Positions 3,361 through 52,463 are shown, counted from the first letter of the stretch. The stretch is 64,000 nt of DNA from Bacilli bacterium (GCA_051872635.1 JBJEEA010000009.1:7513-71512), one strand, 5' to 3'. Program-made: numbers and translations. Notes: generated by a model from the sequence alone, not told the origin.

Positions 3361-4131
3361 TTAGTTATTTTCTTCTATTTCAAAATTTAGTAACTCTTCA
3401 CAAGTTTTTTTATATAAATCTTGTTCATGTTTAATAGTATCGATTAAGAACATTTTATCATTTTCATATTCTTTTAAACCTCTCATATAATAAGGTTTAT
3501 CATCATCTAATACAATAAAAGGCATAATGTTATTTCTTAAACATTCTTTAAACATTATAATTCTACCTACACGCCCATTTCCATCACCAAATGGATGTAT
3601 TCTTTCAAATCTAAAATGAAAATCAACTATATCTTCTAAAGTAATATTAGTTTTAGAATTATATTCATTTAATAATACTTTTATTTCTTTTTCTACATCT
3701 TCTGGTGCAGTGGTATTAATAACATTAACTACACCTATTATATTAGGAACAACTTTAAATCCCCCAACATTATATCTAAGATTTTCTTCATCACTAGTAT
3801 TTCTCTTTAAAATTTTATTCATTTCAATTATCATATCTTTAGTTAATAACTCATCAACATTATCTAACATATAATCAAATAATTTAAAATGGTTTTTAGA
3901 CTCTATTAAATCATCTAATTTAATTAAATCATCACTTTTAGGAATAAATGAAGATGTATCAAATATTGCTTCAGTTTGATCACTAGTTAATCTACTTCCC
4001 TCTATCTTATTTGAATTATAAGCAAAATTAACTTGTGAATAATAATATATATTACCCTTAAAATTAGACTCTTTTTGTTTAATTAATTCATTTTTAATCT
4101 TATTTATTTCCATAATCCAACTCACTTTCAT
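3361..4131 (-). CDS. fic: Fic/Doc-family protein (class II; inhibitory SxxxEG helix in cis).
   Basis: HPFGDGNGRVGR matches the Fic active-site motif HPFx(D/E)GNGRxxR. N-terminal SNKIEG matches the (S/T)xxxE(G/N) inhibitory motif. Confidence 0.85.
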   Translation of the reverse strand: MKVSWIMEINKIKNELIKQKESNFKGNIYYYSQVNFAYNSNKIEGSRLTSDQTEAIFDTSSFIPKSDDLIKLDDLIESKNHFKLFDYMLDNVDELLTKDMIIEMNKILKRNTSDEENLRYNVGGFKVVPNIIGVVNVINTTAPEDVEKEIKVLLNEYNSKTNITLEDIVDFHFRFERIHPFGDGNGRVGRIIMFKECLRNNIMPFIVLDDDKPYYMRGLKEYENDKMFLIDTIKHEQDLYKKTCEELLNFEIEENN

Positions 4132-5034: not shown

Positions 5035-5460
5035 TTAATTATTCATATCATAATTCCATAGTCCAAGTTTCCCCCTACAAGGTATTGTCTTTTCATACTT
5101 AATAACATTTTCAAATTTCCAAGCATAATTTCTAGTATGCCCACTTGTCTCATATACTATTGGATTAATTTCTGAAAGTTTTCTATTAAAATCATCATTA
5201 ACCAAAATACAATCAGTCAAAGTAGCCTCACCAATAATAGCACCACTAGAATATTTTAAATCATATTCCTTAAATCTAGGTACATACTCTTCTTCTAAGC
5301 TCATTCCTGCATGTATTAATATCTTCCCTCTATAATTTGTCTTCCAACTTCTAAATTCATACATCTTGTAACCACTAATAATTAAAGTAGCCCAAGGTTC
5401 CTTAATAGTTAATACTTTCATTTTAATAACAACCTCAAAATGGCATTTTAAACTTACCAC
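5035..5460 (-). CDS. ASCH-domain protein.
   Basis: The pattern KEPWATLIISGYKMYEFRSW resembles the ASCH/PUA-like beta-barrel signature. Its start overlaps the ffh stop by 26 nt. Confidence 0.55.
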   Translation of the reverse strand: MVSLKCHFEVVIKMKVLTIKEPWATLIISGYKMYEFRSWKTNYRGKILIHAGMSLEEEYVPRFKEYDLKYSSGAIIGEATLTDCILVNDDFNRKLSEINPIVYETSGHTRNYAWKFENVIKYEKTIPCRGKLGLWNYDMNN

Positions 5461-6742
5461 TAGTCATCATTTTCATCATCTTTTTCATTTCCTCAAACTG
5501 ATTCAAAAGTTTATTTACTTCAGTTACTGTCGTACCAGACCCATCTGCTATTCGCTTCTTTCTACTAGCCTTAAGAATCTCAGGATGTCTTCTTTCTTCT
5601 AAAGTCATTGACAAAACAATTGCCTCTGTTCTTTTCATAATCTTAGGATCAATTTCTATATTATTAAGTCCCATCTTTTTTGCCCCAGGTAAAAGCTTTA
5701 GAATATTTTCAAGTGGTCCTAATTTTTTTATTTGCTTAAGCTGATCTAAAAAATCCTCTAAATCAAAATTTCCCTTCATCATCTTTTTGGCAGTTTTTTC
5801 AGCTTCTTTCTCATCAATCTCATTTTGTACTTGTTCAACTATTGATAAAATATCTCCCATTCCAAGAATTCTCGAAGCCATTCTCTCTGGATAAAAAGGC
5901 GTAAGACCATCCATCTTTTCAGAAATACCAATAAACTTAATAGGTAAATTAGTTAAATGTTTAACAGAAAGAGCAACACCACCTCTCGTATCACCATCCA
6001 TCTTAGTAAGTATTACACCACTAAGCTTAATTTTATCATTAAATCCTATAATTACATTAATAGCATCTTGTCCCATCATTGCATCAATAACCAAAATAGA
6101 TTCTTGAGGATTAACCCTATTTTGAATATTGGCAAGTTCTTCCATTAAGCTTTCATCTATTTGAAGTCTTCCAGCAGTATCAATAAGAACATAATCAAAA
6201 CCATTATCTTTAGCATATAAAACAGCATTATAAGATATTTCTACAGGATCTTTCTTCCCTTCTGAATATACTTCAATTCCAAGCTCTTTACCTATCTGCT
6301 TAAGCTGATCAATAGCAGCAGGCCTATATACATCACAAGCCACTAGTAAAGGTTTTTTCTTATTATTCTTTCTAAGATAATTAGCAAGTTTTCCAATAGT
6401 AGTAGTCTTACCACTACCTTGAAGACCTACTAACATAAGAATAGCGGGTTCCCCCTTTACATTAAGTGGACTATTTTCACCACCAAGTAAATTAGTAAGT
6501 TCATCCTTTACAATTTTTACAAACACCTCTCCTGGCGTAAGGCTTTTATTAACCTCTTCTCCAAGAGCTTTCTCTTTTACATTATTTGTAAACTCTTTTA
6601 CAACTTTATAATTAACATCAGCTTCAAGTAAAGAAAGCCTAATCTCTCTCATCATTTCACTAATATTATCTTCAGTTATTTTTCCATAACCCTTAATCTT
6701 ATGAACAACATTCTGCAATCTATCACTTAAATTTTCAAACAT
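5435..6742 (-). CDS. ffh: Signal recognition particle protein Ffh (SRP54).
   Basis: GLQGSGKTTT P-loop, DTAGR and TKMDGD GTPase motifs, and a Met-rich C-terminal M domain. Confidence 0.95.
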   Translation of the reverse strand: MFENLSDRLQNVVHKIKGYGKITEDNISEMMREIRLSLLEADVNYKVVKEFTNNVKEKALGEEVNKSLTPGEVFVKIVKDELTNLLGGENSPLNVKGEPAILMLVGLQGSGKTTTIGKLANYLRKNNKKKPLLVACDVYRPAAIDQLKQIGKELGIEVYSEGKKDPVEISYNAVLYAKDNGFDYVLIDTAGRLQIDESLMEELANIQNRVNPQESILVIDAMMGQDAINVIIGFNDKIKLSGVILTKMDGDTRGGVALSVKHLTNLPIKFIGISEKMDGLTPFYPERMASRILGMGDILSIVEQVQNEIDEKEAEKTAKKMMKGNFDLEDFLDQLKQIKKLGPLENILKLLPGAKKMGLNNIEIDPKIMKRTEAIVLSMTLEERRHPEILKASRKKRIADGSGTTVTEVNKLLNQFEEMKKMMKMMTSGKFKMPF

Positions 6743-6843: not shown

Positions 6844-6918
6844 GCAGATGTGGTTCAACGATTAGAATTCGGCCTTGCCAAGGCTGAGACGGGGGTTTGA
6901 CTCCCCTCATCTGCTCCA
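6844..6918 (+). tRNA. tRNA-like gene of 75 nt with a cloverleaf fold. Anticodon loop TTGCCAA gives anticodon GCC (Gly-type), 3' CCA is encoded. The D-loop and T-loop (TTTGACT) are non-canonical. It serves as the prophage attachment target.
   Basis: Acceptor stem GCAGATG/CATCTGC, D-stem GTTC/GAAT, anticodon stem CGGCC/GGCTG, T-stem GGGGG/CCCCT, discriminator T, then CCA. Its last 17 nt are duplicated at the distal prophage end. Confidence 0.5.
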
Positions 6919-6919
6919 T
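6902..6919. repeat. attL core, TCCCCTCATCTGCTCCAT.
   Basis: 18-bp exact direct repeat of 43765..43782. It overlaps the tRNA 3' end. Confidence 0.8.
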
Positions 6920-7607: not shown

Positions 7608-8012
7608 TTATATTGTTTCCAACAAAACTCTATGAAATTGCTTAAATTTATGTGTTTTTTTTGTATACTTTTTTATTTCTTTGTATAATTTAGTTTTACC
7701 TATATATATGTATATATCTTTCAAACCTTCTTTTTTATATTTTTCTATAATCTTTAATAATATTTGTTGATGATTATCTGTTATTTGTTCTATTTTTATA
7801 ATGCCATAATGTGGTTGCTTTCTTAATTCTTTATAATCGATGTCATAGGTAATTATACATTGCTTATTATTAACAGCATATTCAAACACTTCTTTATCTT
7901 TTATTCCTTTTTTATTATCGTTTATATGTTCTACATCATATCCATTTTCTTTTAATAACTTTTTTAACGAAACTGGTATATTTTCATCAAGTAAAAACTT
8001 CACACCTATCAC
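7608..8012 (-). CDS. DUF5615-like protein (PIN/Mut7-C-like). Putative toxin of a DUF433/DUF5615 pair.
   Basis: N-terminal FLLDENIP...GYDV.H......G..D.E.....V....C.ITYD.D pattern is typical of DUF5615/COG4634. Confidence 0.55.
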   Translation of the reverse strand: MIGVKFLLDENIPVSLKKLLKENGYDVEHINDNKKGIKDKEVFEYAVNNKQCIITYDIDYKELRKQPHYGIIKIEQITDNHQQILLKIIEKYKKEGLKDIYIYIGKTKLYKEIKKYTKKTHKFKQFHRVLLETI

Positions 8013-8459
8013 CTATTTAAAAAGAGTAAATATTGATTTATTTCCAATATAGTACATTAAACCTTTAAGTATTGTTTTATTTTTTTTGTTTTTTAATGAT
8101 GGATATTCTTCTTTAATATCATATATAAAAGTTTCTGAATCAAAAATGTTTTTTTCACATTTTTCAACAAAAAAATCATAAACAACTTTAACTGGAACCC
8201 TAGTTCCTTTAAAAACCACTTTGCCATTCATAATTTCTTTATTTTTACTTATTGTGTCTCTATAATCCAATTTTTTTAGTTTCTTTTGTAACATCCAAAA
8301 ATTGAAAAAATAAATAAGTTCATCAATAAAATTTGTTTTTTTAACTCTTGTTTTTTTAGATTCATCTTGAATAATTTCATGACCCCATTCCATAACTAAA
8401 TCAGGCATCATAATCAAATCACCATTCCTATCCTTACAATATAATTTCACATATCTCAC
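8013..8459 (-). CDS. DUF433-like protein (COG2442). Putative antitoxin partner; carries an N-terminal extension.
   Basis: C-terminal FKGTRVPV matches the GTR(I/V)PV DUF433 signature. The stop abuts the downstream DUF5615 start with a 0-nt gap. Confidence 0.55.
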   Translation of the reverse strand: MRYVKLYCKDRNGDLIMMPDLVMEWGHEIIQDESKKTRVKKTNFIDELIYFFNFWMLQKKLKKLDYRDTISKNKEIMNGKVVFKGTRVPVKVVYDFFVEKCEKNIFDSETFIYDIKEEYPSLKNKKNKTILKGLMYYIGNKSIFTLFK

Positions 8460-8662: not shown

Positions 8663-9589
8663 CTACTCAATTACTATCTGAAATTTAGTAGCAGGTACTC
8701 CCATTACTCCAGCATAACCATCTTGACCATTTGTTTTTTCATTATCGTATTGCCAATCATAATTATTAACTTTGTATTTGGCTTTCTTGTATGGTCTTAT
8801 ATCATCTGGCGTATAATAATAAACTTCTACTGCATCAATAATATCTTTACCATTGCCAGCAAAGCCACTATTAAAGTCATTAATGTTATATCCAGTTACA
8901 TAAGGAAGCCAATCCTTACCTTTTAAATGTACCCTATATTTAATAGATCCTTTGTCTACTCTAATTGCTAAACCAGTTATAGGACTATTCTCCCATCCTG
9001 CATAATCTTCTAGATTCTTAACTTCTGGAAGCCATCCGTGTTTTTGCGTTTTAACTCTGTAATAAACATTAACATTTTTATCTGAGACTTGATTTTGGGT
9101 ACCATTAAGTTTCGTTTCAATCATTTTAATAAATCTATCCCAGCCCATATCTAAAGTCCTGTGAGGGCAATATTTATTGGCATAGTCTTGATGTTTAGTT
9201 ACTCTGTCTATTCCCCAATTATATCTTTTTAGAATATCCACTATTAAATCAACTGCATTTTGTTCGGCTTTAATAAATCTATCTCCACCACTTTTAGAAT
9301 AACATATTTCTATTGCTATTCCTTCTCTGTTACCTTTACCGTTGCCATCTCCAGCATGCCAAGCATTACGATTTTCTTCAATACCTTGTACTATCTCTTT
9401 ATCATCAACAGCATAGTGAAAAGATACTTCATTATTGTTATTTGTCATATATGCTATTTCACTTCTTGCAGAAGCATCATTAGCTGTATTATGTACTACA
9501 ATCCTTGTAGGTTTCATGCTATAAGGGCACTTTATTCCAAATTTATTTTTTGGTACTATTTGTTTTACTATATTTACCATATTAATCAC
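8663..9589 (-). CDS. Endolysin: N-acetylmuramoyl-L-alanine amidase (PGRP/Amidase_2 type) with a C-terminal cell-wall-binding region.
   Basis: N-terminal PGRP-like amidase pattern (H..A...A.....H.....N..S.G.......YCP) and an aromatic-rich C-terminal domain. Positioned next to a holin gene. Confidence 0.8.
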   Translation of the reverse strand: MINMVNIVKQIVPKNKFGIKCPYSMKPTRIVVHNTANDASARSEIAYMTNNNNEVSFHYAVDDKEIVQGIEENRNAWHAGDGNGKGNREGIAIEICYSKSGGDRFIKAEQNAVDLIVDILKRYNWGIDRVTKHQDYANKYCPHRTLDMGWDRFIKMIETKLNGTQNQVSDKNVNVYYRVKTQKHGWLPEVKNLEDYAGWENSPITGLAIRVDKGSIKYRVHLKGKDWLPYVTGYNINDFNSGFAGNGKDIIDAVEVYYYTPDDIRPYKKAKYKVNNYDWQYDNEKTNGQDGYAGVMGVPATKFQIVIE

Positions 9590-12693: not shown

Positions 12694-13139
12694 CGGTAAA
12701 CAACTATTGATTTTTGTATGTTATTATGAGATTGTCCTCCACCAGTAGTGTCAGTTTGTAAATCACTAACTGTACTGCTTCCTGTTAAATTCCATTGTAT
12801 ATTATAACCTGTATTTCCGTTGCTTGAGAGTGAAACAGAAACCCCATTTTGATATTCTATTCCATTGTGTTTATGCTTGGGCATCTCATCAACAGTTAAT
12901 GTATGTGTACTTTCACCAATCTCCTTACCTATGGTATTGAAGTTAGAATCGTTAGAATCTATACAAACAGCAACTCTGCCTTGTCCATATAATTCCCATG
13001 TTCCAATATATCCATCATCACCTGGATTATTAGGATTAGTACTTTCTATTATGTCGCCTATTCTATAATAAGGTCTAGGATAAGCAGAATTACCATCTTT
13101 GTCATATAATTGAACTGGTATATCATTCATAGTAGTCAC
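12675..13139 (-). CDS. Phage tail collar domain protein.
   Basis: THTLTVDEMPKHKHNGIEY matches the tail-collar/MdpB motif. Confidence 0.6.
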   Translation of the reverse strand: MTTMNDIPVQLYDKDGNSAYPRPYYRIGDIIESTNPNNPGDDGYIGTWELYGQGRVAVCIDSNDSNFNTIGKEIGESTHTLTVDEMPKHKHNGIEYQNGVSVSLSSNGNTGYNIQWNLTGSSTVSDLQTDTTGGGQSHNNIQKSIVVYRWRRIA

Positions 13140-42491: not shown

Positions 42492-43625
42492 ATGCCAGTT
42501 TATAAGACAAAAACTGAAAAAACAAAAGATAATAAAATATGGTATTTTAAATGCAATTATAAAGATGTTTATGGAAACATAAAGCAAAAGAAAAGTAAAA
42601 AATATGCAACAAGAGACGAAGCGCTGAAAGAAGAAGCAAAATTTAAACTAAAACAAGATGAAGTTTCAGTTTTAAATACTACTATGTATGATTTATATAA
42701 TGCCTATTTCTTTTTAGACGACAGTATAATAAATAGAGAGTCAACATTATATACTAAAGAATATAGAGTTAGAAAATATATACTACCATTCTTTATAAAT
42801 AATAAAAATGGTAAGTACTCTGATTTATCCACAGTTAATGTTGATAAAATTAAAAAATGGAAAATATGGCTAAATGAAAAAAAATTGTCATTACAAACAA
42901 AGAAATCATTATTTAATACTTTCTCTTCTTTAATGAGTTATGCCGTAGAAAAGTATAGTTTAGAATATAATCCTTTAAAACTTGTTGAAAATTTTAGAGA
43001 AAAGAACGATAAGGTAGTTGAAGAAGAAAAAGTCAGATTTATGACTAATGAAGAATATAGAATATTTATTGATGAAGTAGATGATGATTTTAAAGTAGTG
43101 TTTCACTTCTTATATGAAATTGGATGCCGTAAAGGTGAAATGACATCTTTAAAATGGAAAAATGTTGATTTAAAAAACGAAAGAGTAAAATTAAATACAA
43201 CATTTTCTCGCAAAAGAGATGGTAGCCTTACTATTGCAAATACAAAAAATGGCAAAAACAAATATGTTGATATGTCTCCAAAGTTAGTTGAAGAACTAAC
43301 CGAATTATACAACAAGATGAAAAAACTGGATGGTTTCTCTGATGAATGGTTTGTGTTTGGTGGGATAAAATATCTTTCCTACACTACTCTAGGAAGAAAA
43401 AAAGATGAAGCATTTGAAAGATTAAAAGAAAAAGGTATAAATATAACTAATATAACAATACATGAATTTAGGCATAGTTCTGCTAGTTATATGATTAGTA
43501 ATAATATACCAATAGAAGTAATAGCATACAGATTAGGAGATACACCTGAAACTATCAGAAGAACTTATGCTCACCTATTTCCTGATGCTCAAAAAGATGT
43601 AAAAGGATTATTTAATAATTTATAA
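42492..43625 (+). CDS. int: Tyrosine integrase (phage integrase family).
   Basis: C-terminal catalytic motifs: R in GCRKGE, HEFRHSSASYM (H-x-x-R), ETIRRTYAHL (Y). Confidence 0.9.
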   Translation: MPVYKTKTEKTKDNKIWYFKCNYKDVYGNIKQKKSKKYATRDEALKEEAKFKLKQDEVSVLNTTMYDLYNAYFFLDDSIINRESTLYTKEYRVRKYILPFFINNKNGKYSDLSTVNVDKIKKWKIWLNEKKLSLQTKKSLFNTFSSLMSYAVEKYSLEYNPLKLVENFREKNDKVVEEEKVRFMTNEEYRIFIDEVDDDFKVVFHFLYEIGCRKGEMTSLKWKNVDLKNERVKLNTTFSRKRDGSLTIANTKNGKNKYVDMSPKLVEELTELYNKMKKLDGFSDEWFVFGGIKYLSYTTLGRKKDEAFERLKEKGINITNITIHEFRHSSASYMISNNIPIEVIAYRLGDTPETIRRTYAHLFPDAQKDVKGLFNNL

Positions 43626-43764: not shown

Positions 43765-43782
43765 TCCCCTCATCTGCTCCAT
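43765..43782. repeat. attR core, TCCCCTCATCTGCTCCAT (partial tRNA 3'-end copy).
   Basis: Exact 18-bp direct repeat of 6902..6919. Confidence 0.8.
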
Positions 43783-43794
43783 TGAGGTTAATAC

Positions 43795-43830
43795 TCGCAC
43801 ACTTATATAGTGATTGCGAGTTTTTTATTT
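43795..43830 (+). terminator. Original host terminator of the tRNA gene, displaced by phage integration.
   Basis: CTCGCA...TGCGAG hairpin followed by TTTTTTATTTT, about 12 nt after the attR tRNA-end copy. Confidence 0.55.
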
Positions 43831-43832
43831 TA

Positions 43833-43869
43833 AAACAAGTCCATATTATTTGATATTATGGACTTGTTT
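43833..43869. terminator. Perfect 13-bp stem hairpin (AAACAAGTCCATA / TATGGACTTGTTT). Likely terminator of the convergent 990-aa gene.
   Basis: Perfect inverted repeat lying between attR and the 990-aa ORF stop at 43938. Confidence 0.45.
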
Positions 43870-43937
43870 CATTATTTAAAGGAAGTATGAATTATTTATA
43901 AAAACAACCATAAAAACTTTGACTTTTCCTTTTGAAA

Positions 43938-46910
43938 TTAAAAACAAATCAAAGATTTTGTGATGTCGTATGCTTCGTAAAGCATTATAAATGCTGGATT
44001 TACTATGGTGTCATCAAAGTGTTTTTTTAATGTTTTCCCAATTTTTAATGTGACTGAATTTATTTCACTATTGACCCTTTCATCTTGTGAATTGTTAAAT
44101 GCTTCTTTATCTCCATTTTTATAACTTATAACATACCAGTCATCATTACAATAAACTTCTTTTAAATCCCCAACATCTATTGCTTTATATAATGCTAATG
44201 TGTTTTCTTTTTCTGATTTTATATATCTTAACGCATTAACTTTTTTGTTAATAAGTTTTATATAATCTTCATCATAAGAATCAGCTGCTAAATAATACAT
44301 AATCTCTTTTCTATCATCTTGGTAATTAAAATAGCATTGACCTAAATTAAATGTACCATTTCCTCTAATTAAATATTGGACATTTTTAGAATCAGAATAT
44401 TCTACCGCCTCAATCGGTTGTGGTAAAATGTCAACAAATTTTCTATTACTTCCTAATTTACTTCCAAAATCTTTATCTTTAAGATTACAAATTTTTGCAA
44501 TTAAACAAGGATATTTTTCTATACCTTTTATTTCTTTATCAAAATTAGTAAACCCAATTGTTACATTTTTAATGCAACTTTCTATTCCTTCAAATTCAAA
44601 TGAAATTCTTATTAATTCATCAATAGCTTGTAAATATACATCAAAGAAATCAACACAATCTATACTTTTTGAAATTTCAATATTATCAAAGCACAGTAAA
44701 TCTCCATTTCTCCAAACCCAACTATGTGCTAAAATATCATTATCTTTTTTTATAACAAATATTCTCCCATTAAAACTAGTTACAGCATGTTTTAAACATG
44801 AATATCCATTACCTAACACAGTAAAACAGCAATCAGTCTTATTACCAACACATAAAGCTTCCATATCATCTAATCTTAATATCTCATAAGAATATTTATC
44901 TTTTATTCCTGCAATTCTTGGTATTGTAGAAGATATTCTGTTCAAAATCTGATCATGTAATACTAAAGTTTCATTCACAATACTATTATCACAACCAATA
45001 AATTTAAATATTCCCTCTAAACGATAATATTTAGGTGGTAGTGTTATTTCATCACTTTTTAAAAATTCTATTATTGTCTTTAATGATTTATCCTTATTAT
45101 TCATCTCAATCATTTTCCATTCACTAAATATTCTAGGAAAATATTTATATAAATCACTATCTTTATTAGATAACATCCCTTTAATTCTAGAATAATTTTT
45201 ATCATTAAATAATAAATTAATTATCTTAGTATTTAGTATTGGACTTCCTTGTTCATCTAACATTACATTTTTAACATCAACATTACCTACTAAATGTTCT
45301 AATACAGGTAATGTATCATCAATTTCTAATAAAACTCTAGCGTTATTAAATCCAACCATTAACATTAATTTTAAAATTAACTGTTTATAACTTCTAATAG
45401 ACCATTTACCTTCTTCAAACTTTTTACATAACTGTTTATGTTGTTTAACATTATAATTTTCTAATTGTTCTACAGTAAAATCTTCTACTTTAAAGTCTAT
45501 ACTTCCTAATCTATTTAAGATTGTTATTTCTTCAATACTAGATAACTCATATAAAACAGTAATTGACTTACCCATAACAATTTTATAAAATAATTTTTCT
45601 ATTTCTTTAAAATTATTATTCTCAATATTGTTAACAATATTTTGATTTCTTAAGAACAATATAAAATTTGATAAGTGTTGTTTATAATTTTCATCACTTT
45701 TTGAAATAATATTACTTTTTAACATTTCTCTAAGTTCACTTAAATTCTTAAAATATTTTTCTGAAAAAACAGAAGTCATTTCATCAATTTCCTCTAATAT
45801 ACCATTAGTTTTAATATTACTTCTATATTTTGTTTCAACATATCTCAATGCTGATATAGATTCTTTATGCCAATAAGAAATATAAAAGTTTGTGTCAAAA
45901 AGCAATTCAATATTATCAATTTCAAAAGTATCCAATATTTCTTTAAATTTATCATTAAATACTCCAGATCTAGAACATGCTTTGATCCAATCATTTAAAG
46001 TTAATGAATTAAACACTTCTTTATCATCACTATATAAATTAATAATAATCTTTGGTCTGATACTATTATTAATTTTCTTGATATCATGGCCTTGTATTAT
46101 ATTTTCAAAAAAATTAGATATTAAAATCTCTTGCTTCGTTTCATCAGTTTCGTTCAAATACTCTTTTAAATCATATTCAGAAATATTACTAAATGCAGTA
46201 TTTAATTTATCATAATGATTACTTACAAATTGTCTATATACATCTACATTTTCAATATACCTTATAAATGTTAATAGTTCTCCTGGTTTAAATTCATTAA
46301 TTTTATCTATATATTTTTCTAATAAAAAATCCATAAATTCTTCATTATAAATTATTTGTAATTCAAAGATGTTATTTATATCATGCATATTAGCATTATC
46401 ATAACAACAGCTATTATGAAAATATAATCCATTGATAAATTCTCTATTTTCTACTTGAACTAATTCAGTATAAAATTCGGTATAAAAAGAATAATACTCT
46501 TCATGTGTAAATCCATGAAATAAATTCTCAGGATTTTGACTTATAACTTTTTTAAATATATCAGTATCAATATTTTTTAATTCTTTTAACACATTAAAAG
46601 AAAGAAAATAGGATAAAGATCTAGGGGCTATCATTGTGTATAAAAATATATCATTGTCATGTTCTTTAATGTATTTTATATTATCCTTCATAAATGTTAT
46701 TTGCTTATCTTCTGGTAATTTGCTAATAATATAATAAATAGAAAGAGGATTCATATCATTAATATTTTTATTACCAGTTTTAATATATTCATCACACTCT
46801 TTAAGCGCTTTTTCTTCATTTTGTTTACTTGCATTTAATGAAAGTGGTATAGATTTTTTCCCAAGTCCTTCTAACAACACTTGAATTTGTTCATCAGTTA
46901 ATTCTGGCAT
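43938..46910 (-). CDS. Large hypothetical protein (990 aa), operon partner of the ankyrin-AAA+ protein.
   Basis: Long uninterrupted ORF with a GGGGGA RBS. Cys-containing segments (SCCYDNANMHD, CVGNKTDCCFTVLGNGYSCLKH). No domain recognised. Confidence 0.8.
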   Translation of the reverse strand: MPELTDEQIQVLLEGLGKKSIPLSLNASKQNEEKALKECDEYIKTGNKNINDMNPLSIYYIISKLPEDKQITFMKDNIKYIKEHDNDIFLYTMIAPRSLSYFLSFNVLKELKNIDTDIFKKVISQNPENLFHGFTHEEYYSFYTEFYTELVQVENREFINGLYFHNSCCYDNANMHDINNIFELQIIYNEEFMDFLLEKYIDKINEFKPGELLTFIRYIENVDVYRQFVSNHYDKLNTAFSNISEYDLKEYLNETDETKQEILISNFFENIIQGHDIKKINNSIRPKIIINLYSDDKEVFNSLTLNDWIKACSRSGVFNDKFKEILDTFEIDNIELLFDTNFYISYWHKESISALRYVETKYRSNIKTNGILEEIDEMTSVFSEKYFKNLSELREMLKSNIISKSDENYKQHLSNFILFLRNQNIVNNIENNNFKEIEKLFYKIVMGKSITVLYELSSIEEITILNRLGSIDFKVEDFTVEQLENYNVKQHKQLCKKFEEGKWSIRSYKQLILKLMLMVGFNNARVLLEIDDTLPVLEHLVGNVDVKNVMLDEQGSPILNTKIINLLFNDKNYSRIKGMLSNKDSDLYKYFPRIFSEWKMIEMNNKDKSLKTIIEFLKSDEITLPPKYYRLEGIFKFIGCDNSIVNETLVLHDQILNRISSTIPRIAGIKDKYSYEILRLDDMEALCVGNKTDCCFTVLGNGYSCLKHAVTSFNGRIFVIKKDNDILAHSWVWRNGDLLCFDNIEISKSIDCVDFFDVYLQAIDELIRISFEFEGIESCIKNVTIGFTNFDKEIKGIEKYPCLIAKICNLKDKDFGSKLGSNRKFVDILPQPIEAVEYSDSKNVQYLIRGNGTFNLGQCYFNYQDDRKEIMYYLAADSYDEDYIKLINKKVNALRYIKSEKENTLALYKAIDVGDLKEVYCNDDWYVISYKNGDKEAFNNSQDERVNSEINSVTLKIGKTLKKHFDDTIVNPAFIMLYEAYDITKSLICF

Positions 46911-46932
46911 AATATAATCCCCCTTTCTTTTT

Positions 46933-48519
46933 TTATTTTATAAATTTATTAAAATCTATTTTTAAAACTCTTTGTACAGGTTTAGATATACTTGCATCTA
47001 AATTTCTTAATCTTGCTATTGCTTGTTCTCTTGTAGATTCATAAATTCTATCACAGTATTCAAAACTTTCAACAAAATGTTCTGCTGTTATAAACTCACT
47101 ATCATAAACTTTAGCAAATGCAAACACTTTATCAACAATAGATATTGATAAGTCAGGATTATTAACCATATCGTTATAAACTCTATGATTTTTTTCAGTA
47201 GCACTTACAATAATATCAACAACTTGATTTCTTATATTTTCATTTTCAAATTGTATTCCATTTTTTAAATAGTAATCACCAATTACTTTATCAATTATTT
47301 GACATAAAATATCTTCAGTAGGCTCTTTAACTATAATTTTTTCAAATCTTCTTTTTAATGTATCACCACTAAAAAATTCATTATACTCTTTTTCAGTTGT
47401 TGTTCCAATTACCTTTAAATTTGATCTATCTATATAGTGTTTTAACATAGATGCCATATCATTATCCTTACTTTTAGATGAACCAATACCATATATTGTA
47501 TGAATCTCATCAATGAAAACTATTACATCTAATTTTTCACATAACTTCATTAATTTAGTCATGTTATCTTCAAACATTCCAACATATTGACAACCTGCAA
47601 CAACATCACTAGGATTAACCTCTAAAATTATTTTCCCTTGTAAGAAACTAGGTACTTGTCCTATTTTAATTCTATATGCTAGTTCATCCACTAATGCAGT
47701 TTTTCCTACACCTGACTCTCCAACAATTAAAGGTCTCTTTTTATCTTGTGCCAAAGTAATCATAAGATTTTTTAATTCTTTTTCTCTTCCAATAGTTGGA
47801 GCAACTATATAATTTTTCTTATTTAATACTTTTCCATATTTTTCAAGTTCTGAAATATCATTATCAGATAATGTTTGTGTCACAGTAGCAAAGGGAACTT
47901 CTTGTTTTACTGGGGTATTACTAGCAACAACTGTTTTTATTTCTTTAGATTGATTATCCTTGTATAATTTTGAATATCTTTCTTGAAATTTCTTTTTAAA
48001 ACCTTCCATTTGCTCTCTAGAATATTGCTTTTGAAAAATCATAGCTTCAAGTAAATTTCTTGCATCTTGATCTTCTAATGAAGAATCAAATCCATTAGCA
48101 CACAATAAATCATAAATTCTTTCAACTTCACCTAAGTAATCATCACTATATATTGCAGTGTGCATAATAGTATCTTTATCACTATCAACATGATTAACAT
48201 TTAATTTGTATTTTAATGACTCAGTAATAATATTTAAAATAAACTCTTCACTATATCCAGCATATAAAGCGGTTTGAATAAAATTATAATTATAATCAGC
48301 TTCTAAATTCGGACTTAAACCAATTTGCAATAATGATTTAATAGCTAGAAAACACTTTGCTTCATCATACTTATTATCTACTAAAATATGTAATAAAGAT
48401 TGATTATCGTCATCAGTATAATCTAAATTTCCAAATGCACTCTTAATTTTTTTTACATTAGAATACATGTCGTCTGTCATTTCTGACAATAAAGTCCTTA
48501 TATTATTTTTATTTAACAT
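46933..48519 (-). CDS. Ankyrin-repeat protein fused to a single ClpA/ClpB-NBD1-like AAA+ ATPase domain.
   Basis: N-terminal ankyrin-like repeats (SLLHILVDN..., DKDTIMHTAIY..., DARNLLEAM...). Then PTIGREKELKNLMITLAQDKKRPLIVGESGVGKTALVDELAYRI, Walker B VIVFIDEIH, and Arg finger KRRFEKI. Nearly colinear with the ClpB D1 domain. Confidence 0.8.
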   Translation of the reverse strand: MLNKNNIRTLLSEMTDDMYSNVKKIKSAFGNLDYTDDDNQSLLHILVDNKYDEAKCFLAIKSLLQIGLSPNLEADYNYNFIQTALYAGYSEEFILNIITESLKYKLNVNHVDSDKDTIMHTAIYSDDYLGEVERIYDLLCANGFDSSLEDQDARNLLEAMIFQKQYSREQMEGFKKKFQERYSKLYKDNQSKEIKTVVASNTPVKQEVPFATVTQTLSDNDISELEKYGKVLNKKNYIVAPTIGREKELKNLMITLAQDKKRPLIVGESGVGKTALVDELAYRIKIGQVPSFLQGKIILEVNPSDVVAGCQYVGMFEDNMTKLMKLCEKLDVIVFIDEIHTIYGIGSSKSKDNDMASMLKHYIDRSNLKVIGTTTEKEYNEFFSGDTLKRRFEKIIVKEPTEDILCQIIDKVIGDYYLKNGIQFENENIRNQVVDIIVSATEKNHRVYNDMVNNPDLSISIVDKVFAFAKVYDSEFITAEHFVESFEYCDRIYESTREQAIARLRNLDASISKPVQRVLKIDFNKFIK

Positions 48520-48739
48520 ACATAATTTCCCCCCTTAAATAGTTGAGTGCTATTATAACATAAGATCTAAAAAATTACCATAAAAGCAATCAAATTTTCG
48601 ATTATATGGCTATATAATTAAAAAAAAGACAACACTTGAAAATATATTTTTTCAAATATACAATATAATTTAAAATTTCTAAATTATATTTATTTAAACA
48701 TATTACTCGTATAATTCAAGCATAATGTTATGAGGTGCA

Positions 48740-49181
48740 ATGATGGATCACTTTTGCTTTTTTCTTAGATTAATAATTTGTTTTGTTTTAAGCTTTATGA
48801 TTGATCTAGAAAAGAAATAAGAGGAAGAAGTGCCGGACTTAAAACAAACATTATTGTATGTTTAGGAGCTTTCTTGTTTGTATCTTGTTTGTATCGGCAT
48901 CATTTAACTCATATGATGATGACTTGATGTGTATCCCAGCACAAGTTGTTTCAGTAATAGTTTTTTTAGGAGCAGGTGCTTTTACTATTGATACTAATAA
49001 AACAAAAGGTTTAAATACCGAAGCAACAATATGGGGTGTTGCAGCAATTGGCATATTAGTAGGATTAAAGCTTATATTTGAAGCATGTATTGAAACAATT
49101 GCTATTATTTTTACTAATGTTTTCCTTCGAAAAATTAAAAAAACAATAGCACCAGATAGATATCTTGAAGATAACTTGTGA
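48740..49181 (+). pseudogene. MgtC/SapB-family membrane protein gene disrupted by frameshift(s).
   Basis: Frame 1 reads MMDHFCFFLRLII...LEKK-stop. A second frame reads ...GLKTNIIVCLGAF... A third frame reads GLNTEATIWGVAAIGILVG (MgtC signature). An 11-bp tandem duplication, CTTGTTTGTAT x2, lies at 48873..48894. Confidence 0.5.
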
Positions 49182-49530: not shown

Positions 49531-50111
49531 TTGAAAGGTTGTGATCACATATCTCATAATAATTATATACTAAATTTGTTAAATATTAAAGATAAAAATA
49601 TATTTATTCTTACTAATTCTATTCAAGAAAGGATTATTAAAGAAAAAAAACATAAAATTATTGAAGGTATCCTTACTTATACTCCTGAATTTTGTCCAAA
49701 TTGTAGTTGTGTTAATGAATCAACTAACGATATTATAAAATGGGGTTTTAAAAAGAATTATAAAGTTAAAATACCGAATATATCTAATTGTAAAAGTTTA
49801 TTGGTTTTACATAAGCAAAGATTTTATTGTAAAAATTGTCATAATACTTTTATTGCTAAAACTACTTTAGTAGATAGAAACAATAATATTTCAAATAATA
49901 CTGAACTGCAAATTAGAATTAAACTTATGAAAAAGCAATTAAAATGAGTAAAGCACTAAAACTATATAAGGAAAATATAAAATATATTGAAAATTGATTC
50001 AAATACAACATAAACAATGGAATAATAGAAAGAAAGAATAATCTAATTAAATGTATAAGAATTGGCTTTGACTATAGAAAATATAGTCACTTCATATCCA
50101 GATATTTTTAA
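49531..50111 (+). pseudogene. ISL3-family transposase with a large internal deletion (N-terminal 138 aa plus a C-terminal ~24-aa tail).
   Basis: N-terminal zinc-finger/HTH region with CPNC...C..C pairs. Last residues NNLIKCIRIGFDYRKYSHFISRYF are typical of an ISL3 C-terminus. A 9-bp inverted repeat TGACAAAAG/CTTTTGTCA follows at 50121..50143. Confidence 0.55.
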
Positions 50112-50230: not shown

Positions 50231-51664
50231 TTAATTTGCTTTTACTTTACTTCTTTTTTTTAAATATATTATTACACCAAATAATCCAATTAATGATATA
50301 GTTCCCATTAGTATACTATTACCAATACCATCATAAGTTTTTGGATTTTCCTCACCAATTTCTGCTGCTTTTTCTGCTAAAATATAAGTGCTAAAGTGAT
50401 TAGTTTCAAATGATGCATATCCATCTTTTACTGTAACTTCGTGTTCTTCTGTAGTGCCTTCACTTGTAATATAGTACACTATTAAATCTTTTCCATTTAA
50501 TTCAGTTGGTACTGGTATCTTAACTAAAAATTTGCCATTTTCTAATTTTTCTATTTTTGCATTTTTTGCAGCTGAATATAAACTAATATCATAAGATCTA
50601 TAATTTTCAGTTCCTATTATGTCTTTAATTGAACTATCTTCGACATTATTAACTGTTAATGAAGTATCAAGTGGTATTGATGAATCTTCACTTGTTATTT
50701 CAATTTTAGAGTTCAAATCTAATCCATAATATGTTGGTTCTACTAACTCTTCATCAGTTCCTTTTACAATATAAAACTTGTAAGTTCTACTGCCAATTTT
50801 TATATTATAATAGTTCCCATCACTTCTTATTGGGCATCCGTCATCTTCAGAACCTTCAGGTAATGTGCTTAACAAACCACCATATGACACAATAACAGAT
50901 GAATTTCCTAAATAATCATTAATTCTCTTTTGTGCGGCAGCTATGTAAGATTCTTTTGTATCTTCAGTATCTTGTGGTATATAGATAACTCTTTTTAAAT
51001 ATAAACCTTCTGTTTTTGTACCATATGAATACCCATTATAAAATATACTCATTGGTCCAAAAGCTGATTCATACATTAAAGTTTCATCTTGCTCTCCAGC
51101 TCTAACGTCTATATAGTAAGTTATATTAGCTCCATTTGTAACATTATTTAATGTACTAAATTTTAATGCTCTACCAGGAGCTCCCGGATTCCATAATTCT
51201 GATTTTTCACTTGTTAGATAATAGTTTATTAAAGACAAATCTTCAACAAAATAATATGTATTTGGATTAGATTCAGAAAAATTATTTAGTTTACTAAAAT
51301 AATCATTAAGAACTGAATTAGATTTTGGTTCGTCATATGTAACATTAATAGTATATGAATGGCTCCATTCTGCTTCAGTATTTTGGATTTGAACTGTGCA
51401 ACTTGTATATGGTGCTTCATAGCATCCTGCATAAATTTCATATCCATCTTCTTGAAGTAAGTTATTTACATAACCGTTTATAAGAATATCTCCTTCGATA
51501 CCATTTGTAGGTTTCTTAACCTTAAATACCGCATTCTCTCCATCAGGTGCTATTTTTTTGATTAAATCTTCATGATTCTCCAATGCATTTACAATATTTG
51601 GAACTAAAAATAATGCACAAACCATAATAGCAAAAACCCCTAACTTTTTTTTCACATTTTTCAT
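50231..51664 (-). CDS. Secreted or surface-anchored protein (signal peptide plus C-terminal transmembrane anchor).
   Basis: Start reassigned to MKNVKKKLGVFAIMVCALFLVPNIVNA after a strong AGGAGG RBS. C-terminal hydrophobic helix followed by KKRSKVKAN. Confidence 0.65.
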   Translation of the reverse strand: MKNVKKKLGVFAIMVCALFLVPNIVNALENHEDLIKKIAPDGENAVFKVKKPTNGIEGDILINGYVNNLLQEDGYEIYAGCYEAPYTSCTVQIQNTEAEWSHSYTINVTYDEPKSNSVLNDYFSKLNNFSESNPNTYYFVEDLSLINYYLTSEKSELWNPGAPGRALKFSTLNNVTNGANITYYIDVRAGEQDETLMYESAFGPMSIFYNGYSYGTKTEGLYLKRVIYIPQDTEDTKESYIAAAQKRINDYLGNSSVIVSYGGLLSTLPEGSEDDGCPIRSDGNYYNIKIGSRTYKFYIVKGTDEELVEPTYYGLDLNSKIEITSEDSSIPLDTSLTVNNVEDSSIKDIIGTENYRSYDISLYSAAKNAKIEKLENGKFLVKIPVPTELNGKDLIVYYITSEGTTEEHEVTVKDGYASFETNHFSTYILAEKAAEIGEENPKTYDGIGNSILMGTISLIGLFGVIIYLKKRSKVKAN

Positions 51665-52463
51665 GTACACTCCTCCTATTATTAATGATACTATATTTTT
51701 TTTATATTTGAAATGCTTTTTTAACAATTTTAAATAATTTTGAAAATATACTAAGTGATTTAAACATTAAACATTCTTATAGTAATATCCTTATAATAAT
51801 ACTTCAAGTCCATATAAAAAAAGAAGAAGTAAATGTTAATATTTATGAAACATTTAATAAAGATAAACTAGATATAATTGGTATAATAATCAAAGAATTC
51901 ATGAAGCTATAGGATACACCAAGTAAAAAATATAATGACGATATAGCAATTTTAGCACCAGCATAGTATTTAATTTTATGACAAGAAAATATATCTGTAA
52001 TTGACAGACAAATTTCATTAGTTAGTAATAATCTCAAAAGATGATTGTAACTAATTAGGTCTAATTACAAATAGAGAATTTAAATAAATTTCAATACATT
52101 TAAATAATATTGTTTGAAAAAATGTGTCCAAAAAGTTAACATAAATTCACCTGGCGTTTCAAATTCACTCTTTAAAATCTTTTTAGCTGAACCATTTCTA
52201 TAATTAGTTTTTTCTTTCGCCCTAACATATTTAGAATAACCAATAGATTAATCAAATTCAAAATTAATCATCTCTAATAAAGCACTAGATAAGTTTTAAG
52301 TAGGCTTAATATCATAATTCTCTTGTATTAATTTTAACATTTCTTTTTCTTAATTAATTTCTTTCATAATAAAAATCCTTCCATTTCTTTAATTCATTAT
52401 ATCATGGAAAGATTTTCTATTTACACAAAATTATTTGCAGACCCAAATTTTATAAAAACACTT

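What the first reader, a model, noticed from the sequence alone, without database searches (positions are those of the whole stretch)
43938..48519. Two-gene operon (ankyrin + single ClpB-NBD1-like AAA+ ATPase, then a 990-aa orphan protein) wedged between prophage attR and a decayed IS/pseudogene patch
The upstream gene joins three ankyrin-like repeats to one Clp-type D1 AAA+ module: Walker A GESGVGKT, Walker B FIDEIH, Arg finger KRRFEKI. It has no Clp N-domain, no D2 domain and no ClpP-docking loop. I do not recognise this architecture from any described family. Its 22-nt-downstream partner is a 990-aa protein with no recognisable domain, only Cys clusters such as DCCFTVLGNGYSCLKH. The pair abuts the prophage integration site on one side and transposase and pseudogene debris on the other. 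That is classic defense-island context, and ATPase-plus-large-effector is a recurrent defense-system layout. It could be an uncharacterised phage-defense or stress system.
Basis: partly seen in the sequence, partly recalled or inferred. Interest (0 to 1): 0.7.

Follow-up and report, generated by a model that had tools for sequence, protein, structure and literature searches.

The report
Ankyrin-Clp ATPase with GNAT-like giant partner
Two real, co-transcribed genes in an uncultured gut bacterium encode an unusual ankyrin-plus-half-Clp motor and a 960-residue enzyme-like protein that belongs to a large, completely unannotated family; what they do is unknown, and the suggested phage-defence role is neither supported nor excluded.

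The parts
48552..48580 (-). Promoter-like site (extended -10, TGTTATAAT, at 48552-48560) upstream of the ATPase gene. It lies inside the block that is conserved between species.
   Evidence: Sequence read. The colinear block with L007 ends at 48578 and with L038 at 48571. The promoter assignment is inference only; the consensus scan shows no excess of sites over shuffles.
46933..48519 (-). Gene for the 528-aa ankyrin + single Clp-D1 AAA+ ATPase.
   Evidence: ORF. NCBIfam ClpA/ClpB/ClpV partial matches restricted to D1. PDB ClpB/ClpC/ClpA D1, E about 1e-34. Found directly upstream of the big gene in about 17 loci.
48010..48519 (-). Ankyrin-repeat N-domain (residues 1 to about 170, roughly 3.5 degenerate repeats).
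   Evidence: Ortholog profile A4 matches DARPins and ANK proteins in the PDB at E 8e-10 to 1e-5. Weak Pfam Ank_5/Ank_4 hits. The same domain occurs as stand-alone genes next to the big gene in L025, L028 and L032.
47020..47877 (-). AAA+ D1 module (residues about 215-500): Walker A GESGVGKT, pore loop GCQYVG, Walker B FIDEIH, sensor-1 TTT, Arg fingers KRRF, and the D1 small domain.
   Evidence: Walker A, sensor-1 and F335/D337/H340 of Walker B are invariant in all 14 orthologs. The pore-loop aromatic is Y or F in all. One ortholog (L022) has Walker B E->A and Arg finger R->G.
46911..46932 (-). 22-nt intergenic spacer with the ribosome-binding site AAAGGGGG for the second gene.
43938..46910 (-). 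Gene for the 990-aa partner protein (homologs typically 957-965 aa).
   Evidence: ORF. 163 homolog clusters at 59-88% identity. Alignments A1 and A2.
45531..46823 (-). N-terminal alpha-solenoid (residues about 30-460), ARM/HEAT-like. It is the less conserved part of the protein.
   Evidence: AF2 model with pLDDT mostly 80-95 in this region, all helical. Weak Foldseek matches to separase, karyopherins and designed ARM proteins. Conservation profile.
44991..45530 (-). Middle region (residues about 461-640). Highly conserved in sequence but poorly modelled.
   Evidence: pLDDT 33-50. Column conservation 0.81-0.84.
44511..44990 (-). GNAT-fold core domain (residues about 641-800). Residues invariant or nearly so across the family: R658, P664, Y675, C694-C695, R716, S730-W-x-W-R-N735, C740-F-D-N-I-E745.
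44046..44393 (-). C-terminal helix plus three-stranded beta-sheet domain (residues about 840-955). Absent in the 877-891-aa variants.
   Evidence: Model secondary structure. Truncated natural variants L018-L021 and P0103-P0118.
43938..44015 (-). Strain-specific 25-codon tail plus stop codon, with no counterpart in any homolog. Colinearity with the closest relative ends at 44022.
   Evidence: Alignment A1, columns 966-995. blastn block boundary.
43830..43872 (-). Terminator-like hairpin about 65 nt after the stop codon of the second gene.
   Evidence: RNA fold -18.7 kcal/mol, z = -6.6 against shuffles. Inverted repeat I4.
43765..43782 (.). Context only: prophage attR copy of the 18-bp core. The other copy is at 6902-6919, in the 3' end of tRNA-Gly.
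   Evidence: Prophage genes.

Best explanation
This is an accessory, horizontally exchanged two-gene cassette (promoter, two genes, terminator; about 4.6 kb) of uncultured gut Bacilli.

Gene 1 encodes a soluble ATPase that probably forms a ring. It consists of an ankyrin-repeat domain fused to one Clp/Hsp100 D1 module with a substrate-threading pore loop.

Gene 2 encodes a soluble protein of about 960 aa. An alpha-solenoid scaffold precedes a GNAT-fold catalytic domain. That domain lacks the canonical acetyl-CoA pyrophosphate loop and carries a family-wide invariant Cys-Cys / Arg / Arg / Glu constellation.

Proposed mechanism (inferred, not shown):
- The ankyrin domain is the dedicated docking or adaptor element for the large protein.
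- The D1 ring uses ATP either to unfold or remodel a protein substrate for the GNAT-like transferase, or to remodel and activate the enzyme itself.
- The GNAT-like domain transfers an acyl or aminoacyl group to a macromolecular target held by the solenoid.

The biological role is most likely in some conflict or niche-specific process rather than core housekeeping, but it is not established.
For: **Shown**
- Operon anatomy.
- D1-only Clp module with conserved Walker A/B, sensor-1, Arg fingers and pore-loop aromatic.
- Ankyrin N-domain.
- Solenoid plus GNAT fold by two independent structure comparisons.
- No transmembrane segment in either protein; maximum KD19 is 1.34.
- The enzyme-like invariant motif is conserved across more than 130 distant family members.

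**Pairing**
- The ATPase or an ankyrin gene is adjacent to the big gene in 25 of 26 loci, while the flanks are unrelated.
- In L025, L028 and L032, three tandem stand-alone genes of about 200 aa take the ATPase's place; two of them are clear ankyrin N-domain homologs.
- L027 has two tandem pairs. The ankyrin domain is therefore the constant partner.

**Accessory nature**
- Cassette boundaries are shared between species.
- dS of the pair is 0.18-0.25 against 0.75 for the adjacent ffh; dN/dS is 0.35-0.38 against 0.11.
- The ATPase is a pseudogene in L001-L003, deleted in L021, and carries a Walker B E->A change in L022.
Against: - There is no biochemical or structural evidence that the two proteins interact. 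A complex could not be modelled here.
- The GNAT assignment is at fold level only (5-14% identity). The Q/R-x-x-G-x-G/A CoA motif is missing, and no Pfam GNAT model hits even at E<=1. Transferase chemistry is therefore a guess.
- More distant members of the big-protein family have no ankyrin or AAA+ neighbour, so the enzyme does not in general need such a partner.
- The big gene stays intact where the ATPase has decayed, so the ATPase is not strictly required for whatever keeps the big gene under selection.
- The conserved middle region (residues 461-640) is unmodelled.
Confidence: 0.4

Rival explanations
1. Anti-phage defence system. The ankyrin-AAA+ protein senses or is triggered by a phage component. 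The large GNAT-like protein is the effector: for example, it acylates a host or phage macromolecule and aborts infection.
For: - ATPase plus large effector is a recurrent defence layout (general knowledge).
- The cassette shows mobility and recombination, and constraint on it is relaxed.
- Component decay is frequent.
- MGEs lie nearby in this strain and some others: a prophage, a serine recombinase, IS remnants, Mutator transposases and Mob_Pre.
- One ThsB-like protein and one PDC-S05-like protein occur among 107 neighbours.
- There are weak PADLOC IetA/mad8 similarities, E about 7e-4.
- One family member carries a fused Bro-N domain.
Against: - Neither protein gives a meaningful PADLOC hit.
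- Most neighbours across 22 species are housekeeping or unknown.
- The prophage adjacency is explained by the tRNA-Gly attB.
- The family is absent from 50,697 phage and 72,556 plasmid records. It appears in only one IMG/VR contig, and that contig looks like host flank next to a prophage-type integrase module.
- No phenotypic data exist.
Confidence: 0.25
2. Lineage-specific proteostasis or assembly pair. The ankyrin-D1 ATPase is a dedicated chaperone or disaggregase (a Skd3-like logic) for folding, assembling or recycling the large multi-domain enzyme. That enzyme itself has a metabolic or cell-biological role in these gut Bacilli.
For: - Ankyrin plus a single Hsp100-type NBD is the architecture of the disaggregase Skd3/CLPB (PMC7343390, PMC9934407).
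- The proteins are well conserved, 59-88% identity across 24 species.
- Neighbours in several genomes are housekeeping genes.
- Both proteins are predicted to be cytosolic.
Against: - There is no conserved synteny.
- dS is lower than that of the flanking core gene, which indicates exchange between species.
- The ATPase is lost or inactivated in several lineages while the client stays intact.
- dN/dS is three times that of ffh.
Confidence: 0.2
3. Toxin plus immunity/antitoxin module. The large GNAT-like protein is a toxin (compare the GNAT toxins TacT and AtaT, or polymorphic toxins). The upstream ankyrin protein or proteins are its immunity or antitoxin, here fused to an unfoldase.
For: - The gene order, a small partner upstream of the enzyme with a short spacer, is the usual type II TA order.
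- Tandem arrays of diverged ankyrin genes in L025 and L028 resemble immunity-gene arrays.
- Ankyrin-repeat immunity proteins are known in polymorphic toxin systems (general knowledge).
Against: - The ankyrin-ATPase gene is broken by early nonsense codons in L001-L003 and almost wholly deleted in L021, while the big gene remains intact and is seen on several contigs. This is hard to reconcile with an essential antitoxin.
- There is no secretion or delivery domain, signal peptide or variable C-terminal toxin tip. The most conserved part is the putative catalytic domain.
Confidence: 0.1

Closest known systems
Skd3 / human CLPB (mitochondrial disaggregase)
   Same: N-terminal ankyrin-repeat domain fused to a single Clp/Hsp100-type AAA+ module with a pore-loop tyrosine. 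No Clp N-domain and no second ring (PMC7343390, PMC9934407, compared).
   Different: The Skd3 module is of the NBD2 (D2) type and has a C-terminal domain. Here the module aligns to D1 of ClpA/B/C: ClpA positions 81-413 of 734 and ClpB positions 141-394 of 853. This protein is bacterial and cytosolic, and it is genetically coupled to a large partner gene. The resemblance probably arose by convergence.
Class I Clp/Hsp100 ATPases (ClpA, ClpB, ClpC), D1 ring
   Same: 32-40% identical D1 large and small domains. Shares the LEKYG-type linker motif, Walker A/B, sensor-1, the double Arg finger and a KYRG-like pore loop (here QYVG).
   Different: Lacks the Clp_N domain, the M-domain and the whole D2 ring, and therefore any ClpP-docking loop. 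It scores far below every family cut-off: 165 bits against 993 for ClpA.
GNAT (Gcn5-related N-acetyltransferase) superfamily
   Different: 5-14% identity and no Pfam GNAT hit. The beta4-alpha3 loop reads DNIEISKSIDCVDF, with no Q/R-x-x-G-x-G/A motif. It has its own invariant Cys-Cys, Arg, Arg, Glu set. It is embedded in 900-1900-aa proteins.
ATPase + effector defence pairs, e.g. IetAS (AAA+ IetA with protease IetS)
   Same: Two-gene layout of an AAA+ ATPase followed by a larger putative enzyme. Weak PADLOC similarity of the P-loop region to IetA (E 7e-4).
   Different: The similarity is generic to AAA+ proteins. The partner is not a subtilase. No PADLOC model is met.
T7SS EccA-type ATPases (repeat domain + AAA+)
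   Same: A helical-repeat substrate-binding N-domain fused to one AAA+ module. Weak NCBIfam EccA hit, E 4.5e-5.
   Different: EccA has TPR repeats and a CbxX-type AAA+ module. No secretion genes lie near the pair in any locus examined.

Membership tests
Clp/Hsp100 class I (ClpA/ClpB/ClpC) | D1 AAA+ module with Walker A/B, Arg fingers and a pore-loop aromatic | tested here: met
Clp/Hsp100 class I (ClpA/ClpB/ClpC) | Second AAA+ module (D2) | tested here: not met
   The protein ends after the D1 small domain at residue 528. Matches cover only the D1 part of the models and structures.
Clp/Hsp100 class I (ClpA/ClpB/ClpC) | Clp_N repeat N-domain | tested here: not met
   No Clp_N hit at E<=1. The N-domain profile matches ankyrin proteins instead.
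Clp/Hsp100 class I (ClpA/ClpB/ClpC) | Score at or above the curated family cut-off | tested here: not met
   165 bits against 993 (ClpA); 145 bits against 1232 (ClpB).
Skd3/CLPB | Ankyrin-repeat domain N-terminal to a single AAA+ module | tested here: met
Skd3/CLPB | The AAA+ module is of the Hsp104/ClpB NBD2 type and has a C-terminal domain | tested here: not met
   The best matches are to D1 regions of ClpA/B/C models and structures.
GNAT acetyltransferases | GNAT fold | tested here: met
GNAT acetyltransferases | Acetyl-CoA pyrophosphate-binding motif A (Q/R-x-x-G-x-G/A) in the beta4-alpha3 loop | tested here: not met
   The loop at residues 742-755 is DNIEISKSIDCVDF. No glycine motif appears in the window protein or in the distant members displayed. 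No Pfam Acetyltransf model hits at E<=1.
GNAT acetyltransferases | Acyl-transfer activity | not testable with these tools
   Needs biochemistry.
Known or candidate anti-phage defence systems (PADLOC-DB 2.0) | Significant match of the component proteins to a system model | tested here: not met
   ATPase best hit E 6.5e-4 (mad8, IetA; generic P-loop). The 990-aa protein has no hit.
Known or candidate anti-phage defence systems (PADLOC-DB 2.0) | Enrichment of the locus next to known defence genes | tested here: inconclusive
   Among 107 neighbours from 22 species there is one ThsB-like and one PDC-S05-like protein, and a few HTH/control-protein hits. The rest are housekeeping or unknown. No genome-wide background was available.
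Known or candidate anti-phage defence systems (PADLOC-DB 2.0) | Protection against phage | not testable with these tools
   Needs experiment.
Type II toxin-antitoxin (GNAT toxin type) | The antitoxin is indispensable while the toxin gene is intact | tested here: not met
   The upstream gene is pseudogenised (L001-L003) or deleted (L021) while the big gene is intact.

The most novel reading that the evidence does not exclude
The pair may be a previously unrecognised kind of ATP-driven protein-modifying machine. A Clp-type unfoldase ring, tethered by its ankyrin domain, feeds or remodels protein substrates for a new branch of the GNAT fold. That branch is independent of acetyl-CoA and uses the invariant Cys-Cys/Arg/Arg/Glu site. 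The core domain would then define a large, unannotated enzyme superfamily of giant proteins in gut Firmicutes. The ankyrin-coupled subfamily could serve as a new abortive-infection or defence system.
Probability: 0.15. Interest if true: 0.85.

Novelty: new variant of a known kind. Interest (0 to 1): 0.55.

Why it matters
- It adds a bacterial ankyrin + single-ring Hsp100 architecture, D1-type and probably convergent with human Skd3/CLPB. This gives AAA+ researchers a minimal natural D1-only ring with a built-in adaptor and a genetically defined partner.
- It exposes a conserved, enzyme-like GNAT-fold domain present in at least 1413 protein clusters, many of 1000-1900 aa. None of the 46 members scanned has any Pfam coverage, and neither the window protein nor the 37 distant members scanned have NCBIfam coverage. 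This is a sizeable piece of gut-microbiome 'dark matter' that deserves a family definition and biochemical study.
- If the pair turns out to be a defence or conflict system, it would be a new type with an unusual effector chemistry.

Tried and rejected
- **Larger operon.** I asked whether the pair is part of a bigger cluster, as the same-strand unknown genes in L004 suggested. Only the two genes are shared with the window.
- **Prophage cargo.** Rejected. attR lies 156 nt beyond the stop codon, and the closest relative has the pair at the same site without the prophage.
- **C-terminal tail created by prophage integration.** Not supported. The att core is outside the gene, and the origin of the 25-aa tail remains unexplained.
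- **Flanking terminal repeats of the cassette.** None found beyond AT-rich chance matches.
- **Sequence searches that found nothing.** The A1 profile against the PDB gave no hit. PHROGs, the phage records and the plasmid records gave nothing for the big protein.
- **Third homolog search.** Run with a 104-aa core alignment (A6), it was unproductive: only 6 short fragments.
- **AFDB fold library.** Unavailable.
- **Strain-level presence/absence.** Exact-match look-ups of the ffh and flavin-reductase neighbours returned only short contigs from the same arrangement.
- **Literature.** Searches found only Skd3/CLPB as an architectural analogue and nothing on this pair.

Full report

Yes. The ORF listing gives a 528-aa ORF at 46933..48519 and a 990-aa ORF at 43938..46910, both on the minus strand. 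The spacer between them is 22 nt and carries the ribosome-binding site AAAGGGGG. The first gene has AAGGGGGGA before its ATG, and 30-60 nt further upstream there is an extended -10-like TGTTATAAT.

About 65 nt after the second stop codon there is a strong hairpin (-18.7 kcal/mol, z = -6.6 against shuffles). The window has about 25% G+C, where stop codons are frequent. ORFs this long that are also conserved in other genomes are therefore genes.

**2. The ATPase**

NCBIfam matches ClpA (1.7e-48), ClpB (2.1e-42) and ClpV (1.5e-40). These matches cover only the D1 part of those models, and the scores (165 bits) are far below the family cut-offs (993-1232). A search of PDB sequences gives ClpB, ClpC, ClpA and Hsp104 D1 at E about 1e-34, over residues 222-490. 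There is no Clp_N hit and no second AAA+ module.

In an alignment of 14 orthologs the following hold:
- Walker A (GESGVGKT), F335/D337/H340 of Walker B and sensor-1 (TTT) are invariant.
- The second Arg finger residue (R391) is invariant.
- The pore-loop aromatic (GCQ-Y/F-VG) is always Tyr or Phe.
- One ortholog (L022) has Walker B E->A and the first Arg finger R->G.

The N-terminal 170 residues give only weak Ank hits as a single sequence. A profile of orthologs and stand-alone paralogs, however, matches DARPins and natural ankyrin proteins at E 8e-10 to 1e-5. The architecture "ankyrin + one D1 module" is therefore confirmed.

The nearest described architecture is eukaryotic Skd3/CLPB, which has ankyrin repeats plus a single NBD (PMC7343390, PMC9934407). 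Its NBD is of the D2 type, so the resemblance is probably convergent.

**3. The 990-aa protein**

No Pfam, NCBIfam, PADLOC or PHROGs model hits it. A profile of 15 homologs finds nothing among PDB sequences.

Structure prediction on a 20-sequence alignment gives three regions:
- residues about 30-460: a confident all-helical solenoid;
- residues 468-640: poorly modelled, yet highly conserved in sequence;
- the C-terminal part: an alpha/beta region.

The loop between beta4 and alpha3 is where GNATs carry the Q/R-x-x-G-x-G/A motif for the CoA pyrophosphate. Here it reads DNIEISKSIDCVDF. My earlier idea of a Cys-His-Asp peptidase was dropped for this reason, and because H729 is Gln in most relatives.

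**4. A large hidden family**

An exhaustive profile search of 1.84 billion cluster representatives found 1413 proteins at E<=1e-3 and 616 at E<=1e-10. Beyond the close orthologs, the shared part is residues about 655-750. This core usually lies near the C-terminus of proteins of 1000-1900 aa.

Across more than 130 distant members the following are at least 90% conserved: R658, S661, I663-P664, Y675, D682, G689, C694-C695, R716, S730, W731, W733, R734, N735, C740, D742 and E745. N743 is conserved in 82%.

None of 45 such proteins has any Pfam hit, and none of the 37 of them that were also scanned has an NCBIfam hit. No source gives them a name. One contig carries three paralogs in tandem. These distant members have no ankyrin or AAA+ neighbour. 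tblastn finds the domain in none of 50,697 phage records or 72,556 plasmid records.

**5. The pair as a unit**

The big gene was found in 24 species-representative genomes. All are uncultured gut 'Bacilli/Tenericutes' MAGs, with two loosely labelled otherwise, at 36-88% identity.

The partner upstream varies in an informative way:
- An intact ATPase gene lies directly upstream in about 17 loci.
- In L001-L003 the ATPase has two nonsense codons and a frameshift at the Walker A.
- In L021 it is internally deleted.
- In the most divergent branch (L025, L028, L032) three tandem genes of about 200 aa take the ATPase's place. Two are clear homologs of the ankyrin N-domain; the third groups separately and aligns only weakly.
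- L027 has two tandem pairs.

The ankyrin domain is thus the constant partner and the motor is optional.

Clustering all flanking ORFs shows that, apart from very close relatives, no neighbour is shared between loci. The DNA block shared with two other species is just the promoter plus the two genes: 44022-48578 against L007 and 44314-48571 against L038.

Between the window and its closest relative the numbers are:

| Gene(s) | dS | dN/dS |
|---|---|---|
| the pair | 0.18-0.25 | 0.35-0.38 |
| adjacent ffh | 0.75 | 0.11 |

This indicates a more recent common ancestry of the cassette than of its flank, that is, recombinational exchange. It also indicates weaker constraint than on a core gene.

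**6. Context and the defence idea**

The prophage is real. It has an integrase and terminase, portal, head, tape-measure, fibre, endolysin and Sak4 genes. It is bounded by an 18-bp repeat at the 3' end of tRNA-Gly (6902-6919) and at 43765-43782.

In the closest relative the pair is followed directly by tRNA-Gly and ffh, with no prophage. The adjacency therefore reflects a tRNA attB and is not cargo. Upstream of the pair the window has an MgtC fragment and an ISL3 remnant. Beyond ffh lie a Fic gene and a large serine recombinase. This strain's neighbourhood is rich in MGEs.

Across species the picture is mixed:
- arc/DcuC/DUF2935 genes and ffh;
- Met gamma-lyase and EF-P;
- peptidases, NUDIX and Fic;
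- transposases and Mob_Pre.

A census of 107 neighbours from 22 species gave mostly housekeeping or unknown proteins. It also gave four HTH proteins, three Mutator transposases, two ParB_N proteins, one RhuM, one ThsB-like TIR protein and one PDC-S05-like protein. Neither protein of the pair matches PADLOC meaningfully. Defence is therefore possible but not supported by context. The 'classic defence island' claim does not generalise.

**7. Mechanism**

What is shown:
- a motor with all the hallmarks of an active, substrate-threading D1 module;
- an ankyrin domain that co-varies with the large protein;
- a large soluble protein with a scaffold and a GNAT-fold domain that carries a strongly conserved polar constellation;
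- no transmembrane segment in either protein.

What is inferred:
- The ankyrin domain docks onto the large protein or onto its target.
- The ring remodels or unfolds a protein substrate, or the enzyme itself.
- The GNAT-like domain performs a non-canonical acyl or aminoacyl transfer.

I put about 0.4 on this reading. The rivals are:

| Reading | Confidence | Main point against |
|---|---|---|
| Phage defence | 0.25 | No PADLOC match; neighbours mostly housekeeping |
| Dedicated chaperone-client pair | 0.2 | No synteny; ATPase lost in some lineages |
| Toxin-immunity | 0.1 | Big gene intact where the ankyrin-ATPase gene is broken |

**8. Novelty**

The components belong to known fold classes (ANK, AAA+ D1, GNAT). 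The ATPase architecture, the large protein's family and their pairing are not described in any library or paper I could search. I rate it a new variant of known kinds, of moderate-to-good interest. The main value lies in the D1-only ankyrin Hsp100 and in the large unannotated GNAT-like family.

Noticed in passing
window 6919-43782: An apparently complete prophage of about 36.9 kb, integrated at the 3' end of tRNA-Gly(GCC) (6844-6918), with 18-bp att cores CCCCTCATCTGCTCCAT. It has an integrase at 42492-43625, terminase, portal, major head, tape-measure and tail-fibre genes, an endolysin at 8663-9589 and a Sak4-like protein. At its left end it carries a DUF433 + PIN-like (DUF5615) pair at 7608-8459 (via L039).
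   Followed up: partly
window 43938-44022: The last 25 codons of the 990-aa gene (DDTIVNPAF...LICF) have no counterpart in any of about 160 homologs, which end ...KTLKKVI. Colinearity with the closest relative stops at 44022, inside the gene and 240 nt before the att core. The origin of this replacement is unexplained.
   Followed up: partly
L001-L003 (8393-9978 in L001); L021; L022: The ATPase partner is decaying in some lineages. In L001-L003 it has two nonsense codons plus a frameshift at the Walker A. In L021 it is internally deleted. In L022 it has Walker B E->A and Arg finger R->G. In all of these the big gene is intact.
   Followed up: yes
L025, L028 and L032 (7964-9987); L027 (2440-12880): In the divergent branch, three tandem stand-alone genes of about 200 aa (two of them clear ankyrin N-domain homologs) replace the ATPase. 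L027 has two tandem pairs: a 919-aa Ank-Ank-AAA+ protein with an 872-aa paralog, then a 409-aa Ank-Ank protein with a 959-aa protein.
   Followed up: partly
window 5435-6742 against 43938-48519, compared with L007: Synonymous divergence of the pair (0.18-0.25) is 3-4 times lower than that of the adjacent ffh (0.75) between the same two genomes. This implies recent recombinational exchange of the cassette. Identities are also discordant: the ATPase is closest to L008 (87%) but the big protein to L007 (88%).
   Followed up: partly
L034 (10001-24892): An uncultured bacterium carries three tandem giant paralogs (1872, 1305 and 1222 aa) that all contain the core domain. They sit next to a 1096-aa RCC1/WD40-repeat protein and a further gene of more than 1600 aa.
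   Followed up: no
P0125 (1079 aa, metagenomic): One family member has a fused Bro-N domain (PF02498), a DNA-binding module typical of phage and MGE regulators.
   Followed up: no
A7 consensus (distant family members, N-terminal regions): The giant family members show a repeated motif, roughly P.(L)F(I/L)...AP.ELK..FY, in their N-terminal halves. This suggests an unannotated repeat module.
   Followed up: no
window 48858-49181 and 49531-49947: A truncated MgtC-family ORF matching profile positions 36-120 of 121, and an N-terminal zinc-ribbon fragment of an ISL3-type transposase. These are remnants between the cassette and a 498-aa ORF with no Pfam hit (50231-51727) that looks like a signal-peptide/C-terminal-anchor surface protein.
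   Followed up: partly
window 1152-2723 and 3361-4131: A large serine recombinase (Resolvase/Recombinase/Zn_ribbon_recom) and a Fic-domain protein lie on the far side of ffh. They indicate a second integrative element in this strain (annotations of the matching genes in L039).
   Followed up: no
L007 about 13095-13113: The closest relative, which lacks the prophage, keeps a degenerate att-like copy (TTCCCTCATTTGTTCCAT) beside its tRNA-Gly. This suggests an earlier integration and excision at the same hotspot. L038 has a related prophage-type integrase module about 4.6 kb downstream of its pair.
   Followed up: no
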